Source: Escherichia phage 308Ecol101PP
DNA: 64,000 nt
Reading direction: 5' to 3' (one strand)
Sequence record: OR062945.1
Position 1 is the stretch's first letter. Each line of letters begins with the position of its first letter. Shown piece after piece: positions 3,805 to 58,334 of the stretch. The translations under genes and the position numbers were made by a program. Under the pieces are notes generated by a model. It ran no database searches, had not been told where the DNA came from, and saw only the letters and a list, made by a program, of their open reading frames with translations.

Positions 3805-4221
3805 ATGTTTACTACTGCTAAAGGTTTCACTGCTGCTGATCTGAAAGTTACTTCTATCCGTACTGACGCTAACCCACATAACCATAATCGTGTTCGTAAA
3901 GCATGGGTCCTGCATTGTGATGACGCAAGTGCTAAAAAACTCCAATCTTTGCCACAAGAAACTCGTTTTATGATTTATGGTTTTATTGATAACGATGTAT
4001 CTGATATGTGGATTCATCTGATGCGTAAGCACTATAAAGATTCTATTGAAGCCGGCGGAAAAATCGTTCTTGATAAAGATGGTTCTGAGCGTCTGGAAGA
4101 TCTCTACTGTGTTGATGCCGACGAACAACTAATTGCAGCTGGTGAAATTGTTGCTTCTAAAATTCCAGAATATATTGAATCACTGCCTGAAGCTATTAAA
4201 AAGCAGATGGTTGCTGCATAA
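3805..4221 (+). CDS. rpbA: RpbA-like RNA polymerase-binding protein (by position between 46 and 45)
   Basis: 138 aa ORF with SD AGAGAGAAA; occupies the rpbA slot of the T4 gene order; sequence identity not verified. Confidence 0.5.
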   Translation: MFTTAKGFTAADLKVTSIRTDANPHNHNRVRKAWVLHCDDASAKKLQSLPQETRFMIYGFIDNDVSDMWIHLMRKHYKDSIEAGGKIVLDKDGSERLEDLYCVDADEQLIAAGEIVASKIPEYIESLPEAIKKQMVAA

Positions 4222-48281: not shown

Positions 48282-48941
48282 TTATTTAGCCCTTCCTAGT
48301 ATTCGGATCGCTTGGTTGCATATAGCCGCTAAGCGATCTTCCTCAAGTATATTACTCCCCTTATACCAATACATCGTCACAGTTCCGGCATAGATGTTAT
48401 CCAAATTAAAGTATGGACAACTATACATATAAGAAAGTTCGGCAGTCTTAGATTTTGTAGGCAAAAATGCAAATTCTGATTTAGATGAGAAATGACGGCC
48501 ACTTAAATGAATTATATATTCATTGGCCGTTTTATCCACCGGGAATCCGCCAAGGGACTTTTCAGAAATTGTGCTAGGTAGTTTGCCTTCATAAGCTATA
48601 AGGTCGACAAAATAATTTAAGTTTTTAGGTCTGAAAGAATACACAGCACTAAAATCTGCACCAGATGAGATATGAACTATTTGCAGTTGTTCTAGAGCCG
48701 CAGATTCAAAACGTAAAGCTCGTTCTTTTTGGATTATTTCAGTATAAGTATCATACTTAGCTCTTACATAATAATCCAGCAAAATACTTCCTTTGTACCA
48801 TATTAGTGCCATTAGGAACAAAAGAATAATTACCGCTACTCGGGACATTAAAACCTTTCCGGTAGCGTTATCTTTGAAAATACGATCTAGCAACCCAAAT
48901 AGAATATCACTAAGCGAAAATGATACTTTTGGTGTTGCCAT
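48282..48941 (-). CDS. t: holin T
   Basis: 219 aa; single N-terminal TM helix (VAVIILLFLMALIWY) plus large C-terminal domain; position next to gene 38. Confidence 0.8.
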   Translation of the reverse strand: MATPKVSFSLSDILFGLLDRIFKDNATGKVLMSRVAVIILLFLMALIWYKGSILLDYYVRAKYDTYTEIIQKERALRFESAALEQLQIVHISSGADFSAVYSFRPKNLNYFVDLIAYEGKLPSTISEKSLGGFPVDKTANEYIIHLSGRHFSSKSEFAFLPTKSKTAELSYMYSCPYFNLDNIYAGTVTMYWYKGSNILEEDRLAAICNQAIRILGRAK

Positions 48942-48950
48942 AATACCTCC

Positions 48951-49502
48951 TTACTTAAAGATATTTATAATCGCTTTGATAATAGATTTGTTTTCAAGGT
49001 CAGGGAATTTAGGGAATTCGCCGCCAAGATGTTCATGTTTTTCTAAAAGGGCAAAGAATTTTTTGAGCTCTTTAAATTTTCGTTTTTCTTCTCTATTAGC
49101 AACCTCTGCGTCAATAAGAGAACTTAAAACACTGAATAATTTATAGAGTTCATGAATTTTCTTATCACGTTGAACTACGCGTTTATATGCTTCATCTTCC
49201 TTCCACCCGTCGTCGGTCCAAATGTCAAATTCACCGGGTTCTTCTGTAGTAACATTTTGAAGAGCACCTGGAGTGTCAATAACAATTTTTTGCTTATCAT
49301 AAGTCCATACTGTTTTTCCACGATGGTCTTCAACATATACCCATTCTTGTTCGCGTTCATCAAATACAACAGCATAGCCTTCTTTAGGGTCTAAAGGTTT
49401 TTTTGGTGTCGAATGAGCCGGAAATCCTACGCCTTTTAATGGTTTATAATTTTCTTCTTTGTAAAATTCTTTAGTGTCAAAATAATAGTGATAGAGTTTC
49501 AT
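48951..49502 (-). CDS. 38: gp38 long tail fibre assembly chaperone (T4-type)
   Basis: 183 aa; MKLYHYYFDTKEFYKEENYKP..., FALLEKHEHLGGEFP match T4 gp38 as recalled. Confidence 0.8.
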   Translation of the reverse strand: MKLYHYYFDTKEFYKEENYKPLKGVGFPAHSTPKKPLDPKEGYAVVFDEREQEWVYVEDHRGKTVWTYDKQKIVIDTPGALQNVTTEEPGEFDIWTDDGWKEDEAYKRVVQRDKKIHELYKLFSVLSSLIDAEVANREEKRKFKELKKFFALLEKHEHLGGEFPKFPDLENKSIIKAIINIFK

Positions 49503-49528
49503 ATTATAAAAAAGGGACAGAAGTCCCT
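49503..49528 (-). terminator. minus-strand terminator between genes 37 and 38
   Basis: Minus-strand AGGGAC-UUCU-GUCCCU followed by U-run. Confidence 0.5.
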
Positions 49529-49533
49529 TCTCC

Positions 49534-52500
49534 TTATGCTAAACGAACGATATAGTTAAAAGCAACGTTTTTAACTGTGTTTTCTGTATTTCCTGTGGCA
49601 TTTACAGTTATTGTATGACCATGAGAACCAATCGCTACCGAATGAGAGTGGGCACCAATACCTACAGTATGTGTATGGGCACCAATACCAACGGTGTGGG
49701 CATGGTTACCTGTGGTACTTGTAGTTCCTGACCAACTATGAGTGTGGGCACCATCTGAAGAAGTTTTGGCCATATTCGACGCTGCAGTAGCACCGCTCAC
49801 GGATCCAGTGATTTTAGCGTTGCCGTTTGGTCCCGCACTATTGTATCCATCATAGAATATGCTAGTGGGTACGCCGCCTTGTATCTGAGGGCCTGAACGC
49901 GCGTGTTGGTGCGCACCAGCGGAACCAGTATTACCACTCACTGTATGGTTATGATTACCAGTGGTATTGCTGGTCTTAGTACCATAGTCGAAGCTACTTG
50001 TCGTCTTAGTACCATAATCAAAACTTGACGTGGTCTTAGTACCCAAATCTGTGCTTGATGCACTTGCACTATGGCTATGTGACTTAACACCGTCTGCTTC
50101 TGTACTTAGTACAGCACGCCCGGATGGTTTACCCTTGATAGTTTGACCACGCATATCAGGCAGAGCGCCGGAAGGATACACCGCAGCTAACTTAGGATAC
50201 AAGCCAGCATCAAATGTTTGACCTTCCATTATGGCATAACCTTCAGGAGGTGTATCAGTAGGCCAAGGAATCGGAGCACCAATTGGATAACTTGAGACAA
50301 TATCTGTCTTAAGGTTATTTATTGTGGTATTCAAGTTAGCAAAATTACCAGAACCACCAGTAATATTACCATCAGTACCGAATTGAGCATTACCAACTTT
50401 TAATGGTTTAGTAATATCGACAGAATCAGAGTTTAATGCAATACCATGTGAATATGTGTAGCTGTGCATACGAACGACGTTGCCGCCATCGCCAATACCT
50501 AAATACCATTTCGGAACATCTGCTTTACGTCCTTGAATGAAGTTAGAAGACTCTTGTGTTGGAGCATTTATTCTAATAGCATCTGATGCCATATTTACTG
50601 TTATGCGTTGACCAGCCGTAGTACCAGTTGTATCTACTTTAAATCTACCACCGCCGATATCTACTACATGGTCCATAGAAACTTGGCCATCGCCTAAATT
50701 GATATAAAACGGGCGAAGATTACTTATTCCACCACTTTCACCGGCATCTTTAGGAGTCGGAATAATGTACAGACTTGTTTCTGAACGTCGGAAAATAGCG
50801 CCGTATTCAGCGTTCCAAATTCTTAATGCGTCGGCTGTTCCACCGAATTTAGCTTGGCCGTTTACAGATAATCCATTATTTGCAACTAAACTTGATTCGC
50901 TAACAATAGAACCGGCCGATATAATACCACCACCCACACGTAAAGCGCCGGAAATTCTGAATTGAAGAGCACCGACAGTTTCAGAACCCGTCGGTGCTAA
51001 ACGTTGAGAATAAAAATGATAGCCCTGGCCATCATACAATTCAAATACGGTTTCACGATTACCGGCGGTGGAGTCGAATGCATTACCCCAGGCTTTCATA
51101 GTCAGATAACTTTTATTTTGTCCTGAACGGGTCCCGGCGTTCCACTGGATAGTTCTCGAGCCATCAACTTTGCTAGGGGCGCCAAATTTAAGGCCTTCGG
51201 TATTATTAGAACTATTTAAAAATAATTCGTTGTCTAATTTAACAGGTTGGATAGAAGAAATAGTGCCGTCAGCATAAAACTGTACATTATTAGAGCCAGT
51301 TACCAATTTCAAAATACCCGGATTAACTTCCATGCCTTCTTGAGTATTAATATTAGTTTTGCCTTTACCACGGAAATAGTGGTTCATTTTTCCGCCAGAA
51401 TTATATCCAATATGGGTTTGACCATCTCCAGCAGAGTTTTCATCAGCCTGAGTTTGGACTGATAAAAGAGCGGCGTTGGTTCCAGGCATAATCCATGTGG
51501 TTCCTTGGTCTTCTGAACGTCCAAATAAACCTTTGCGAGTACTACGGAAACTGTCAGGAGTAATAGAAGCAACAGAATTCCCTGAACCAACTAAATCATA
51601 AACACCGGTTTTTTTGTATGATAGCCCCGTCCCGTTATCGCCTAGAGCTAAATAAACACCGAATCCTAAAGCGGCACCATTACCATAGTCGCTTGACGGG
51701 TATCCTGCAGTCACAGTACCGATGGCCAGGCTATTGCGGATAATCATTCTGCCGTCATTACGAATACCATATAATTTAAATGATGGTGTATTACCAGACC
51801 ACCAAGAAACTTCATCAGCCTGGCCTGTTTGTGCAGTAACAATTTCATGATACATTGTACTACCGGATTTAGCTCGCACTTTACGAAGATAGTTTACACC
51901 ATTCGTTTCGCCGGTGCCTGGATATACATAATTAACTAATGAATCTGTATCATATACACCAAAGGCTTTGCCACCGTGGATAACTGTATCAGCTGCAATG
52001 CGTTTAGTTACTAACGAATCTGATGCTAAAATACGGTTGGCTTGAAATTCACCGCCGTTTATAGAACGGAAATAGAATTCGCTATTAACGGTGCTTCCTG
52101 TTCCTTGTCTAACTCTAAGACGTATTTCACCATCAGTTGTAGTTTGAGGACGAGCATATATAACGCCTCGTTCAGTGCCATCAGCATTTTCAAACCATAA
52201 ATGGGCATTTGATGTTTCACCAGGTGAAGCTCTTGTATAAAACGAACCTTGCAATGCTCTAAAAGTTTGAGCTGAAATACTAGTACCAGCGGTAATCTGG
52301 CCACTTGTGGAAAAATTTCCAAAATTGTTTATTGGCCCATTAACACGTAAAGTTCCATTAATAGTAACGTTGCCGTCAACCTGGCCACCTTTAGCAAAGC
52401 CTAGGCTAATAATATTACCGAGGTCATCTTTAGTAAAAAGAGTTCGATCTTTTAAGTTTATCGCTAATTCGCCTTCGGCTAATTGTGCTGCAGTAGGATT

Positions 52501-52551
52501 AACTCCTGCCACTTTGCTTCTTTTAAATTGTATCTGTTTTAATGTAGCCAT
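49534..52551 (-). CDS. 37: gp37 long tail fibre distal subunit (receptor-binding)
   Basis: 1005 aa; C-terminal His-x-His boxes (GNHNHT, GAHQHA, GAHTHS, GNHAHT, GAHTHT, GAHSHS, GSHGHT); order 34-35-36-37-38. Confidence 0.9.
49972..50062 (-). repeat. three tandem ~30-nt repeats inside gene 37 (protein repeat [10 protein letters not shown])
   Basis: GTCTTAGTACCATA...-like unit repeated three times on the + strand; in-frame within gp37. Confidence 0.6.
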
Positions 52552-52559
52552 AAGTCCTC

Positions 52560-53222
52560 TTAATAATAGCCGAAATCTTGAACAGAATCTTTAATTACAA
52601 TCTGGTCGAAACGAGGAACATGATTAGCCTCAGACGCCGGATTCTGTGAGAAAAAGTTTGGTGCTGTTAAAGTACCAATCATGGTATCGCCAGAACGCAA
52701 TACACGGGAATTTGTGTTATCCGTAACAATATTTATTCGTCCATCAACATAATCTTTTCGTGTGAGATCATTTGCTGCAACCGGAGCAGTAGCGTTAGAA
52801 CGGACAGGACCAATTGCATAAAAACCGCCCTTAGTGCTGATATCACCGGTACGAGCGTTAATAACAACAGTTCGGTCTGCTGAACCTTGTGATGACTTAA
52901 AACCAATACCATTCCACGAAACGATGTCAATATTTGCCATATCAAAAGTAGCTGCATCACCGTTACCTGGATAAACACCACACTGTTGACTACTACCTAC
53001 AGTAGGAACATGTACGCCTCCATTAAATCGAACAGTTGCAGCGTAAGTACCACCATTAGCTTTAGAAACGAAATCGTTATCAGCAGCTTGTGGTTTATTA
53101 TATTCTGAATAGAGTTTAAACGTTTTATACAGGACGTCATCACCTGCTGGCATTAAAGGGAAATTACCTTGATGCCATATAACGGCACCGCCAGTTGTAC
53201 TACCAGCTTTTAAATCGGCCAT
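52560..53222 (-). CDS. 36: gp36 long tail fibre hinge connector
   Basis: 220 aa between 35 and 37; T4 gene order and size. Confidence 0.8.
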
Positions 53223-53246: not shown

Positions 53247-53254
53247 TATTTATA
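53247..53254 (-). promoter_or_regulatory. late promoter TATAAATA (minus strand) upstream of gene 36
   Basis: + strand TATTTATA = minus-strand TATAAATA about 25 nt upstream of gp36 start. Confidence 0.55.
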
Positions 53255-53284: not shown

Positions 53285-54412
53285 TTATTCTGATGCTTCT
53301 TTAAATTCTTGTCCAAATACCTTACCAGTATCAGTTGAAGATTGAGTAGGTAATGTCATTATGTCTGGAGCACTTAAAGATTCTGAAACATAATTTACAC
53401 GAATACCATTTACACCAAACTCAGCAGGTTTTGAAACACTTCCATTACATGATACTTCAGTGAATATAACGTTTCTTAATCCACCTTGCCCGACTGGAGC
53501 TGTACGATAACAATAAATCGTGTACCCATCAGCTCCAGCAGGAATTTCTATATAGTCTTCATATATCTTCCATTCACCTGCGCCCCCATCAAAGTTTATA
53601 TCCTTAAATGAAATAGGTGAAGTAGAAGGAGATTTAAAGAACCGAATAGAAAGTCGTGTCGTCCCTTGTGCTAACAAATCAGCATCAGCCATTAGTTGGA
53701 ATTTCATATAAAGGAAATCTCCAGGCTTCAATTTATACCCAGCGAGAGGTGTAATAAGGGACGTTGTAGGCATCCTTTTAATTTCATTATTAGTACCTCC
53801 AACAGCAGATAAAAATGTGTCTGTCGATTCGTACGTACGACTAGGGAAGCCGGTAGCACCAATATCATCGATCGTGTCGTACACAACATCAAGTGGTGTA
53901 CTATAGTCGGTTGAAGTTTTCTTATTACTATACTTAATATGTTCTAGTGCTATAGCATTCTTACCAGAAATATAAAATGCTGAATAAGAAATGTCCACTA
54001 TATTTAAAACTTGTTGAGCTAATGGAATAACAGAACTCCCAGCTTTAGTAAACCATGCGAGAACTTCGGGTGGAAAGTTTGTTTTAGCATTAGTAACAAG
54101 AGCAAATATAAAATTTGAAGCGTATGTGTCCATGTAAGTAACGAATGCGCTTGACGTGGCGTCGTTTTCAGTAGAGAAATTATATGTCTTAGATTCAACT
54201 ACTGCACCTGTTGTAGGATTTATTACACGAACGTTTAATCCAACAGAAAAAACCTGGGACCCAAGTGGATTATCTTGGAACTTAATATAAGCAGGAGATG
54301 TTGATAGCGGGCAAGAGCCCGCTATGCTTAATTTAAATCGTACTGAATTGCTTTCCGATAAAAATGGCGTTTGGACGTATCCTTGTCCAAACTTAGCCAT
54401 AAATTTTTCCAT
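53285..54412 (-). CDS. 35: gp35 long tail fibre proximal connector
   Basis: 375 aa between 34 and 36; T4 gene order and size. Confidence 0.8.
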   Translation of the reverse strand: MEKFMAKFGQGYVQTPFLSESNSVRFKLSIAGSCPLSTSPAYIKFQDNPLGSQVFSVGLNVRVINPTTGAVVESKTYNFSTENDATSSAFVTYMDTYASNFIFALVTNAKTNFPPEVLAWFTKAGSSVIPLAQQVLNIVDISYSAFYISGKNAIALEHIKYSNKKTSTDYSTPLDVVYDTIDDIGATGFPSRTYESTDTFLSAVGGTNNEIKRMPTTSLITPLAGYKLKPGDFLYMKFQLMADADLLAQGTTRLSIRFFKSPSTSPISFKDINFDGGAGEWKIYEDYIEIPAGADGYTIYCYRTAPVGQGGLRNVIFTEVSCNGSVSKPAEFGVNGIRVNYVSESLSAPDIMTLPTQSSTDTGKVFGQEFKEASE

Positions 54413-58326: not shown

Positions 58327-58334
58327 TATTTATA
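58327..58334 (-). promoter_or_regulatory. late promoter TATAAATA (minus strand) upstream of gene 34
   Basis: + strand TATTTATA about 31 nt upstream of gp34 start codon. Confidence 0.6.

What the first reader, a model, noticed from the sequence alone, without database searches (positions are those of the whole stretch)
48951..52551. T4-type adhesin architecture: chaperone-like gp38 with the receptor tip in gp37
gp38 is the short 183-aa chaperone type, and gp37 carries C-terminal His-x-His boxes, implying the gp37 tip itself binds the receptor. gp37 also contains three tandem ~30-nt repeats ([10 protein letters not shown]) just upstream of the His boxes, a likely site of length variation and host-range change.
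Basis: partly seen in the sequence, partly recalled or inferred. Interest (0 to 1): 0.35.

Follow-up and report, generated by a model that had tools for sequence, protein, structure and literature searches.

The report
T4/TuIb-type tail-fibre tip and chaperone
This is an ordinary, already well-described T4-type phage tail-fibre tip (gp37) with its assembly chaperone (gp38); the short repeats are part of the fibre's rigid metal-binding stem, not a host-range switch.

Summary
The coordinates hold exactly two minus-strand genes of an RB69-group (Mosigvirus) T-even phage: gp38 (183 aa) and gp37 (1005 aa). gp38 is 68% identical to the T4 and TuIb gp38 chaperones and shows no T2/T6-type adhesin features. 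The gp37 C-terminus matches the T4 receptor-binding tip structure 2XGF (E=1e-86). It is 89% identical to phage TuIb gp37 (sequenced in 1990) and 97% to Mosigvirus NBG1. All eight His-x-His boxes lie in the last 181 residues. So the "T4-type architecture" reading is supported, and it is already known.

The repeat claim is only partly right. There are two full 30-nt copies plus a partial third, and they lie between His boxes 1 and 2. The two full copies differ at 8 of 30 nt, and none of these differences changes the peptide, so the duplication is old and under selection. The copy absent from T4 is matched by an extra 9-aa VGIGAHxHx unit on the returning strand. In 117 of 118 unique homologous tips the two strands stay balanced, and more distant relatives with one more unit follow the same rule.

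Among close relatives the repeat number does not vary. Sequence variation, and one natural 5-aa duplication, sit in the head domain (aa 884-929), which is equivalent to the T4 receptor-binding tip. Interest is low.

The parts
48951..49502 (-). gene 38: 183-aa T4-type tail-fibre assembly chaperone (Tfa family), not an adhesin
   Evidence: ORF. Pfam Caudo_TAP 23.3 bits against a cut-off of 22.1. PHROG 105 'tail fiber assembly' 1e-49. 67.6% identity to T4 gp38 'distal long tail fiber assembly catalyst', 100% to phage JM10, about 33% to lambda Tfa. 68% identity to TuIb gp38.
49508..49533 (-). g37-g38 intergenic hairpin followed by a U-run; a GGAG lies about 28 nt before the gp38 ATG
   Evidence: Sequence. 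RNA fold -15.8 kcal/mol, z = -3.1. The equivalent site is annotated as a terminator in phage NBG1.
49534..52551 (-). gene 37: 1005-aa distal long-tail-fibre subunit with a C-terminal receptor-binding tip
   Evidence: ORF. PHROG 1699 'long tail fiber protein distal subunit' 1e-255. Pfam Gp34_trimer, gp37_trimer and Collar. Best full-length match in the phage collection is only about 77% aa identity, so the shaft is mosaic.
50137..50280 (-). collar (knob, D10-equivalent) domain, aa 758-805
   Evidence: Pfam PF07484 Collar, E=4e-11. Aligned to 2XGF.
49903..50079 (-). outgoing (ascending) stem strand, aa 825-883, carrying His boxes 1-3 (HSH 825, HNH 867, HQH 881)
   Evidence: His-box positions. 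Aligns to the T4 stem 882-931 (domain limits from PMC9603124 and PMC6957217).
49954..50043 (-). 10-aa stem repeat: two full copies [10 protein letters not shown] (aa 837-846 and 847-856, nt 49984-50043) plus a degenerate third [10 protein letters not shown] (aa 857-866). T4 lacks one full copy.
   Evidence: TRF period 30, 2.4 copies. DNA. 8 of 30 nt differences with no change to the peptide. 10-aa gap in T4 in the alignments.
49765..49902 (-). head (receptor-binding tip) domain, aa 884-929, between His boxes 3 and 4. Unrelated in sequence to the T4 head; TuIb-type.
   Evidence: Equivalent to T4 932-959 by His-box register. 65% variable columns among 8 same-architecture relatives. 89% overall C-terminal identity to TuIb.
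49615..49746 (-). returning (descending) stem strand, aa 936-979, with His boxes 4-8. Includes three 9-aa (V/A)xIGxHxHx units (27-nt tandem repeat), one more than T4.
   Evidence: TRF period 27 at 49627-49705. His-box spacings 14, 9, 9, 9 against 14, 9, 9 in T4. 9-aa gap in T4.
49537..49614 (-). conserved C-terminal return into the collar ([26 protein letters not shown])
   Evidence: Near-invariant in the alignment with T4, TuIb and NBG1 and across 38 homologues.
53247..53254 (-). TATAAATA, T4 late-promoter consensus upstream of gene 36; probable start of a g36-g37-g38 late transcript (inferred)
   Evidence: Pattern match. Five matches in the window is not above chance, so the position relative to the genes is the only argument.

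Best explanation
The span encodes the distal long-tail-fibre subunit gp37 and its dedicated folding chaperone gp38, in a T-even (Mosigvirus, RB69-group) phage. The arrangement is that of T4 and TuIb.

gp38 is inferred to help gp37 trimerise and not to be part of the virion.

The last ~250 residues of gp37 form three parts:
- a collar;
- a long thin stem, in which each chain runs out (aa 825-883) and comes back (aa 930-979);
- a small head at the far end (aa 884-929).

Eight His-x-His boxes per chain are predicted to form eight metal (iron) sites stacked along the trimer axis. T4 has seven.

The [10 protein letters not shown] repeat is stem scaffolding. Each 10-aa unit on the outgoing strand is partnered by one 9-aa xIGxHxHx unit on the returning strand. 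The extra copy relative to T4 therefore lengthens the stem by one metal-binding layer.

Receptor specificity resides in the head. The head is TuIb-like, so the outer-membrane porin OmpC is the most likely receptor.

Shown here: homology, motif positions, strand balance, and where variation lies. Inferred: metal binding, the chaperone role, the layer pairing and the receptor.
For: Identity of the two genes:
- gp37 aa 728-1005 matches T4 gp37 tip PDB 2XGF, E=1.1e-86, with gaps of exactly 10 aa (second [10 protein letters not shown]) and 9 aa (one VGIGAHxHx) in T4.
- It is 89% identical to TuIb gp37 and 97% to NBG1, both with the same architecture.
- gp38 is 67.6% identical to T4 gp38 and 68% to TuIb gp38; PHROG 105 1e-49; Pfam Caudo_TAP.
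- The genomic neighbourhood is g34-g35-g36-g37-g38-t, as in T4. The window is 97.7% identical to Mosigvirus ST0 over 18 kb.

Stem register:
- His boxes are at 825, 867, 881 | 936, 950, 959, 968, 977. In T4 they are at 883, 915, 929 | 966, 980, 989, 998.
- The T4 positions fall in the published stem segments 882-931 and 960-1009 that flank the tip 932-959 (PMC9603124, PMC6957217).

Balance of the two strands:
- In 118 unique tips the outgoing-minus-returning His-box span is 13-15 in 117. The classes are 42|27, 46|32-33, 56|41 and 70|55.
- Independent distant relatives with one further outgoing unit (L084, L085, L093) have five nine-spaced His boxes.

Selection on both repeat copies: 8 of 30 nt differences with 0 aa changes in the window; pooled pS 0.75 against pN 0.11 over 38 unique copy pairs.

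Head as the variable part:
- 65% variable columns against 8-20% in the other regions.
- Phage F31 carries a QGGVP tandem duplication in the head.

Literature: seven iron sites and head-located receptor residues in T4 (PMC6957217, PMC5221442). A conserved T4/lambda receptor-binding-protein family with a 30-70 aa specificity insert and a gp38-like assembly protein; TuIb receptor given as OmpC(/LamB) (PMC9659904).
Against: - No structure was obtained for this protein. The AlphaFold2 monomer model was unusable (mean pLDDT 52, pTM 0.19). The layer-by-layer pairing of the extra 10-aa and 9-aa units is therefore inferred from indel covariation and the T4 register, not seen.
- The covariation involves few independent events. 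The needle classes may be old modules spread by recombination.
- One metagenomic relative (L002) has the extra outgoing unit without the extra returning unit. This is either an assembly error or evidence that imbalance can be tolerated.
- The head differs from TuIb at about 10 of 46 positions, and single substitutions are known to change specificity in T4. The OmpC prediction is therefore soft.
- Hashemolhosseini et al. [quoted passage not shown]
Confidence: 0.85

Rival explanations
1. One reading: the tandem [10 protein letters not shown] repeats are an unstable, slippage-prone site. Changes in copy number would alter fibre-tip length and so switch or expand host range.
For: - Copy number does differ between lineages. 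T4 has one full copy; this phage, TuIb and lambda-type side tail fibres have two.
- One relative (L001) has two nucleotide-identical copies, which suggests occasional homogenisation or re-duplication.
- A published title (Tetart et al. [quoted passage not shown] I could not read that paper to see which segment is duplicated.
Against: - In the window the copies differ at 8 of 30 nt, which is poor substrate for slippage, and none of the differences changes the peptide.
- 39 of the 40 listed phage records with this tip type align ungapped over the repeat (516 or 513 nt). The one exception (F31) has its insertion in the head.
- No T4/lambda-type 'IVRLA' tip has more than two full copies in 2.9 million viral contigs. 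Only 3 contigs match a three-copy pattern, and all are distant relatives.
- In 117 of 118 unique tips the number of outgoing units is matched by returning-strand units, so a lone copy change should unbalance the stem.
- T4 receptor and host-range mutations map to the head (PMC6957217, PMC5221442).
Confidence: 0.06
2. gp38 is not only a chaperone. It would either stay on the fibre as the adhesin (T2/T6/S16 type) or help determine which receptor the gp37 tip recognises.
For: - The 1990 TuIb record annotates the homologous gp38 as 'receptor-recognizing protein 38'.
- gp38 of this phage is only 68% identical to the T4 and TuIb proteins.
Against: - No similarity to T2/S16-type gp38 adhesins. The only family hits are Caudo_TAP and PHROG tail-fibre-assembly families.
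- The length is 183 aa, against about 260 aa for the adhesin type (PMC3157838).
- gp37 has no intramolecular-chaperone or cleavage module. It ends in the T4-type IVRLA return strand.
- T4 gp38 is absent from virions (PMC9603124).
Confidence: 0.07
3. The repeats and His boxes are compositional or low-complexity coincidence with no structural meaning.
For: The region is rich in G, S, T and H and looks low-complexity. The pattern FDYG-x6-FDYG-x6-FDYG also occurs in unrelated proteins of Myxococcales and Bacteroidaceae.
Against: - Homology to a solved structure at E=1e-86.
- Invariant His and Gly columns across 38 homologues.
- All eight HxH motifs lie in the last 181 of 1005 residues.
- Strong purifying selection on both copies.
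Confidence: 0.01

Closest known systems
Phage TuIb gp37/gp38 (GenBank X55191; Montag, Hashemolhosseini & Henning 1990)
   Same: - Gene order 37-38-t.
- The gp37 C-terminus is 89% identical, with an identical architecture: two full [10 protein letters not shown] copies, His-box spacings 42, 14, 55, 14, 9, 9, 9, and the same head length.
- gp38 is 183 aa in both.
   Different: - About 10 substitutions in the 46-aa head.
- gp38 is only 68% identical.
- The genome backbone here is Mosigvirus (RB69 group), whereas the TuIb record is filed under Tequatrovirus T4.
Phage T4 gp37 receptor-binding tip (PDB 2XGF, Bartual et al. 2010) with chaperones gp38 and gp57A
   Same: Collar, interwoven His-box stem, head, and C-terminal return strand. 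72% identity over the C-terminal ~277 aa. gp38 is 67.6% identical.
   Different: - This stem has one more outgoing 10-aa unit and one more returning 9-aa His-box unit, giving 8 HxH against 7.
- The head is 46 aa against 28 aa and is unrelated in sequence.
T4- and lambda-based receptor-binding-protein family: lambda Stf/Tfa and enterobacterial prophage side tail fibres (Magaziner & Salmond 2022, PMC9659904)
   Same: Conserved flanks around a 30-70 aa specificity insert, with a gp38/Tfa-like assembly gene immediately downstream. Many prophage members share the two-copy (56|41) stem.
   Different: Those proteins sit on siphovirus or P2/Mu-type fibres with unrelated N-terminal shafts. Their Tfa proteins belong to the other assembly-protein subfamily (PMC9659904).
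T2/T6/S16-type tip (gp38 adhesin capping a cleaved gp37)
   Same: Same locus position, between g36 and t, and same role in host recognition (PMC3157838, PMC7917993).
   Different: It is a different solution. There, a ~260-aa gp38 with glycine-rich motifs is the adhesin, and gp37 carries a cleaved intramolecular chaperone. Neither feature is present here.

Membership tests
T4/TuIb/lambda-Stf-type receptor-binding tip (gp37 C-terminal collar-needle) | Significant sequence homology to the solved T4 gp37 tip across collar and stem | tested here: met
   phmmer against PDB: 2xgf_A, E=1.1e-86, query aa 728-1005 to chain 2-242.
T4/TuIb/lambda-Stf-type receptor-binding tip (gp37 C-terminal collar-needle) | Phage tail collar domain immediately before the needle | tested here: met
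   Pfam PF07484, 43 bits against a cut-off of 24, aa 758-805.
T4/TuIb/lambda-Stf-type receptor-binding tip (gp37 C-terminal collar-needle) | His-x-His boxes on both the outgoing and returning stem strands, in register around a variable head | tested here: met
   Three boxes before the head and five after it. The outgoing-minus-returning span is 15, as in 117 of 118 family members.
T4/TuIb/lambda-Stf-type receptor-binding tip (gp37 C-terminal collar-needle) | Conserved C-terminal return strand (...GNTENTVKN[IV]AFNYIVRLA) | tested here: met
   Alignments.
T4/TuIb/lambda-Stf-type receptor-binding tip (gp37 C-terminal collar-needle) | gp38/Tfa-like assembly gene directly downstream | tested here: met
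   The gp38 ORF starts 31 nt after the gp37 stop. Homology.
T4/TuIb/lambda-Stf-type receptor-binding tip (gp37 C-terminal collar-needle) | Interwoven homotrimer with octahedral iron sites formed by the His boxes | tested here: inconclusive
   Only a monomer AlphaFold2 run was possible. Mean pLDDT 52 and pTM 0.19, so the model is unusable. No multimer or metal modelling was available.
T4/TuIb/lambda-Stf-type receptor-binding tip (gp37 C-terminal collar-needle) | The head domain binds the cell-surface receptor (OmpC or LPS in T4, OmpC in TuIb) | not testable with these tools
   Needs adsorption or plating assays. Only the concentration of variation in the head was shown.
gp38/Tfa tail-fibre assembly chaperones (Pfam Caudo_TAP, PHROG 105) | Profile match above the curated threshold and homology to T4 gp38 and lambda Tfa | tested here: met
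   PF02413, 23.3 bits against a cut-off of 22.1 (marginal). PHROG 105 1e-49. 67.6% identity to T4 gp38, about 33% to lambda Tfa.
gp38/Tfa tail-fibre assembly chaperones (Pfam Caudo_TAP, PHROG 105) | Required for gp37 folding and absent from the mature virion | not testable with these tools
   Known for T4 (PMC9603124, PMC6957217); not testable in silico here.
T2/T6/S16-type gp38 adhesin system | A ~260-aa gp38 with an N-terminal attachment domain and glycine-rich motifs flanking hypervariable loops | tested here: not met
   gp38 is 183 aa. No adhesin-family hit in Pfam or PHROGs; only assembly-protein families match.
T2/T6/S16-type gp38 adhesin system | gp37 C-terminal intramolecular chaperone that is cleaved off | tested here: not met
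   No such domain in Pfam. The C-terminus is the T4-type return strand.

The most novel reading that the evidence does not exclude
The gp37/Stf needle stem may be a quantised 'ladder'. Its length would change only by coupled gain or loss of one 10-aa x-FDYG unit on the outgoing strand and one 9-aa xIGxHxHx unit on the returning strand, each step adding one metal site.

In all families sampled, the number of outgoing units plus one equals the number of nine-spaced His boxes:
- 2 and 3 in T4;
- 3 and 4 in this phage;
- 4 and 5 in distant relatives.

A parallel set of 14-aa layers occurs 0, 1 or 2 times on both strands.

If stem length is tuned to the depth of the host's surface layer (LPS core, O-antigen or capsule), it would be a second, so far unexamined axis of host-range adaptation. 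It would also give a simple design rule for engineering fibre reach. I did not find this rule stated in the papers I could search; Bartual et al. 2010 was not readable here.
Probability: 0.2. Interest if true: 0.4.

Novelty: already known. Interest (0 to 1): 0.15.

Why it matters
It confirms which of the two T-even adhesin designs this phage uses. That tells anyone engineering or predicting its host range to look at gp37 residues ~884-929, the TuIb-like head with OmpC as probable receptor. They should not look at gp38 or the stem repeats.

The one mildly useful by-product is a simple rule: the two strands of the stem always gain or lose units together. This should be respected when grafting or resizing such fibre tips. 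It also predicts eight rather than seven metal sites for this protein.

Tried and rejected
1. AlphaFold2 of the C-terminal 226 aa with a 38-sequence alignment gave mean pLDDT 52 and pTM 0.19. This is expected for a monomer model of an obligate interwoven trimer. I discarded it and ran no fold search.
2. Several papers are not held in the library: Bartual et al. 2010 (by DOI and as PMC2996694), Chen et al. 2017 (PMC5691408) and Miller et al. 2003 (PMC150520). Structural limits were taken from PMC9603124 and PMC6957217 instead.
3. I could not establish which segment is duplicated in the Tetart 1996 host-range mutants. Secondary sources give only the title, a G938V substitution and a recombinant approach. 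A search for 'His boxes' with 'tail fiber' found nothing.
4. The generic terminator scan missed the g37-g38 hairpin. It was found by eye and then folded.
5. I considered that the repeat might be recent and slippage-prone. This was rejected on the 8 of 30 nt divergence that leaves the peptide unchanged, and on the conservation of the duplication in prophage fibres.
6. I considered a T2-type adhesin and rejected it.
7. The three-copy DNA pattern also hit unrelated FDYG-repeat proteins in Myxococcales, Bacteroidaceae, a cyanobacterium and an actinobacterium. These are irrelevant to tail fibres.
TRF and direct reading were used instead.
Full report
**What is at the coordinates**

The span 48951-52551 holds exactly two minus-strand ORFs: a 183-aa protein (48951-49502) and a 1005-aa protein (49534-52551). 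Their neighbours on the same strand are:
- the T holin (48282-48941; Pfam Phage_holin_T, 1e-90);
- gp36 (52560-53222; Pfam Phage_T4_gp36);
- a 375-aa gp35-position protein;
- a 1291-aa gp34-position protein.

This is the T4 long-tail-fibre module g34-g35-g36-g37-g38-t. The adjacent 18 kb is 97.7% identical to Escherichia phage ST0 and about 97% to APCEc01 and mar005P1. NBG1, whose record is filed as Mosigvirus mar005p1, carries the closest gp37 tip. The window therefore comes from an RB69-group (Mosigvirus) T-even phage.

**gp38**

The 183-aa protein matches Pfam Caudo_TAP (lambda gpK/Tfa family) just above threshold, at 23.3 bits against 22.1. It matches PHROG 105 'tail fiber assembly' at 1e-49.

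By tblastn it is:
- 100% identical to the protein of phage JM10;
- 96-99% identical to those of many Mosigviruses;
- 67.6% identical to T4 gp38 ('distal long tail fiber assembly catalyst');
- about 33% identical to lambda Tfa.

It is 68% identical to TuIb gp38. Nothing links it to the ~260-aa T2/T6/S16-type gp38 adhesins described in PMC3157838 and PMC7917993. Its absence from virions is known for T4 (PMC9603124) but was not tested here.

**The gp37 tip**

gp37 matches PHROG 1699 'long tail fiber protein distal subunit' (1e-255). It also matches Pfam Gp34_trimer, gp37_trimer and Collar.

Residues 728-1005 align to the crystal-structure chain of the T4 receptor-binding tip, 2XGF, at E=1.1e-86.

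There are eight H-x-H motifs. Their first His residues are at 825, 867 and 881, then 936, 950, 959, 968 and 977. There are none in the first 824 residues.

The seven T4 motifs are at 883, 915, 929 | 966, 980, 989, 998. They fall in the published stem segments 882-931 and 960-1009, which flank the tip subdomain 932-959 (PMC9603124, PMC6957217). By register, the window protein divides as follows:
- outgoing stem, aa 825-883;
- head, aa 884-929;
- returning stem, aa 930-979;
- a conserved return strand to the C-terminus.

In T4 the His boxes of the three chains coordinate seven iron ions along the needle axis (PMC6957217). Eight boxes here predict eight sites; this is an inference.

**The repeats**

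Tandem Repeats Finder reports a 30-nt period with 2.4 copies at 49971-50043, and a second array with a 27-nt period and 2.3 copies at 49627-49705.

At the protein level the first array is:
- [10 protein letters not shown] (aa 837-846);
- [10 protein letters not shown] (aa 847-856);
- a degenerate [10 protein letters not shown] (aa 857-866).

It lies between His boxes 1 and 2. So there are two full copies rather than three, and the array lies inside the His-box array rather than upstream of it.

The two full DNA copies differ at 8 of 30 positions, and none of these differences changes the peptide. One of them is a TCA/AGT serine codon switch. Eight random substitutions would leave the peptide intact with P about 5e-6. 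Across 38 unique copy pairs from relatives, pooled pS is 0.75 and pN is 0.11. The duplication is therefore old, and both copies are held by purifying selection. It is not a fresh slippage product.

**Coupling of the two strands**

Relative to T4, the window protein has an extra 10 aa on the outgoing strand (the second [10 protein letters not shown]). It also has an extra 9 aa on the returning strand (one VGIGAHxHx unit).

I tested whether this pairing is general. I took 120 homologues from the protein search and 80 viral-contig loci, and reduced them to 118 unique tips.
- His box 1-2 spacing is 32 with three nine-spaced returning boxes, or 42 with four.
- The outgoing-minus-returning His-box span is 13-15 in 117 of the 118 tips.
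- There are four stem classes: 42|27, 46|32-33, 56|41 and 70|55.
- The classes also differ by 0, 1 or 2 pairs of 14-aa layers, always on both strands.

As a forward test, I searched for sequences with three or more exact FDYG units.
- Distant relatives with one further unit (L084, L085 and L093; spacing 54) have five nine-spaced His boxes.
- L086 and L091 (three proper units, spacing 44) have four, one of them degenerate in L091.

If the degenerate leading unit ([10 protein letters not shown]) is counted, outgoing units plus one equals the number of nine-spaced returning His boxes: 2 and 3 in T4, 3 and 4 here, 4 and 5 in those relatives.

The single exception is L002. This is a 10.5-kb metagenomic contig from a close relative whose gp38 is nearly identical. 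It has the extra outgoing unit but lacks one returning unit. I cannot tell whether that is an assembly collapse or a real variant.

Two caveats apply. The classes may represent few ancient events spread by recombination. No trimer structure could be computed, because the monomer AlphaFold2 model had pLDDT 52.

**Where specificity lies**

The C-terminal 277 aa are 89% identical to phage TuIb gp37 (GenBank X55191), 97% to NBG1 and 72% to T4. TuIb has the same two-copy repeat and the same His-box spacing, so this architecture has been in the databases since 1990.

About 50 phage records carry this tip at 90% identity or better. They include Mosigviruses, Tequatroviruses and Yersinia phage phiD1. 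Of the 40 listed records, 39 align without gaps over the repeats (516 or 513 nt). The exception is phage F31, whose extra 15 nt encode a QGGVP tandem duplication inside the head.

Among eight unique tips of identical architecture, variable columns are distributed as follows:
- head: 65%;
- stems: 17-20%;
- collar: 15%;
- return strand: 8%.

In T4, residues that determine LPS or OmpC binding and host range lie in the head: I933, N937, G938, T939, Y953 and others (PMC6957217, PMC5221442).

PMC9659904 describes the whole group (T4, TuIa, TuIb, Ur-lambda, PhiNP and more than 200 others) as one receptor-binding-protein family. It has conserved flanks, a 30-70 aa specificity insert and a gp38-like assembly protein. 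That paper lists OmpC(/LamB) for TuIb.

The most likely receptor here is therefore OmpC. This is an inference from 89% identity, with about 10 substitutions in the head.

The architecture claim is supported, and it is textbook knowledge.

The claim that the stem repeat is a hotspot for length variation and host-range change is not supported:
- copy number is fixed within the tip type;
- the copies are diverged at the DNA level;
- a lone copy change would unbalance the stem;
- natural variation and T4 host-range mutations sit in the head.

There is precedent for duplications expanding T4 host range (Tetart et al. 1996, title cited in PMC3157838). I could not read that paper to see which segment is involved, so a small residual probability remains.

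**Novelty and interest**

The module is already known. gp38 is 100% identical, and the tip 97% identical, to deposited phages.

Full-length gp37 has no match better than about 77% aa identity. This reflects the usual mosaic shaft of T-even fibres.

The only mildly new element is the explicit strand-balance rule for stem length. I did not find it stated in the searchable literature. It is a structural corollary of the known fold rather than a new kind of system.

Noticed in passing
window 49508-49533 (- strand), between gp37 stop (49534) and gp38 ATG (49502): A strong hairpin, GGAGAAGGGAC-UUCU-GUCCCUUUUUU, with -15.8 kcal/mol and z = -3.1. The equivalent site is annotated as a terminator in phage NBG1. 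The only Shine-Dalgarno-like GGAG lies about 28 nt before the ATG, at the foot of the stem, so the hairpin may also bring it close to the start codon. From memory only, I recall this being described for T4 gene 38. The generic terminator scan missed it.
   Followed up: partly
window 48962-48969, 53247-53254, 58327-58334 (- strand): The T4 late-promoter consensus TATAAATA sits just upstream of t, g36 and g34 respectively. This suggests a g36-g37-g38 late transcript. The total count in the window (5) is not above chance, so only the positions are suggestive.
   Followed up: no
window 53285-54412 (- strand), gp35-position protein: It scores just above the Pfam gathering threshold for ILEI (interleukin-like EMT inducer / FAM3-type domain, PF15711): 29.4 bits against 27, aa 58-128. 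This is an unexpected family name for a tail-fibre hinge protein.
   Followed up: no
window 49534-52551 (gp37 as a whole): The flanking genome is about 97% identical to known Mosigviruses, and the tip is 97% identical to NBG1. The best full-length gp37 match in 50,697 phage records is only about 77% aa identity. DNA hits are broken into 2-4 pieces. The shaft is a new mosaic combination.
   Followed up: partly
L002 (IMGVR_UViG_3300030021_000020), tip ORF ending near locus position 3807: This close relative has a gp38 that differs at only two residues. Its gp37 has two full [10 protein letters not shown]-type units but only three nine-spaced His boxes. It is the only unbalanced stem among 118 unique tips. 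It is either a 27-nt assembly collapse or deletion, or a tolerated imbalance.
   Followed up: partly
L001 (IMGVR_UViG_2706795401_000001, 170.8-kb T4-like contig), repeat region: The two 30-nt repeat copies are nucleotide-identical here, whereas they differ at 3-13 nt in the 37 other unique pairs. This suggests occasional gene conversion or re-duplication.
   Followed up: no
L083 (Escherichia phage vB_Eco_F31, OP870147.1 159193-160323): A 5-aa tandem duplication, QGGVP-QGGVP, lies inside the head domain of an otherwise about 95% identical tip. It is a natural example of a small duplication in the receptor-binding part.
   Followed up: partly
L084, L085 (IMG/VR), L093, L087, L086, L091 (genome contigs): These are more distant tail-fibre tips with different collar and C-terminal ends. 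They have three or four perfect FDYG units, and correspondingly four or five nine-spaced His boxes. L087 is cut by the contig end. The stem repeat system extends beyond the T4/lambda 'IVRLA' family.
   Followed up: partly
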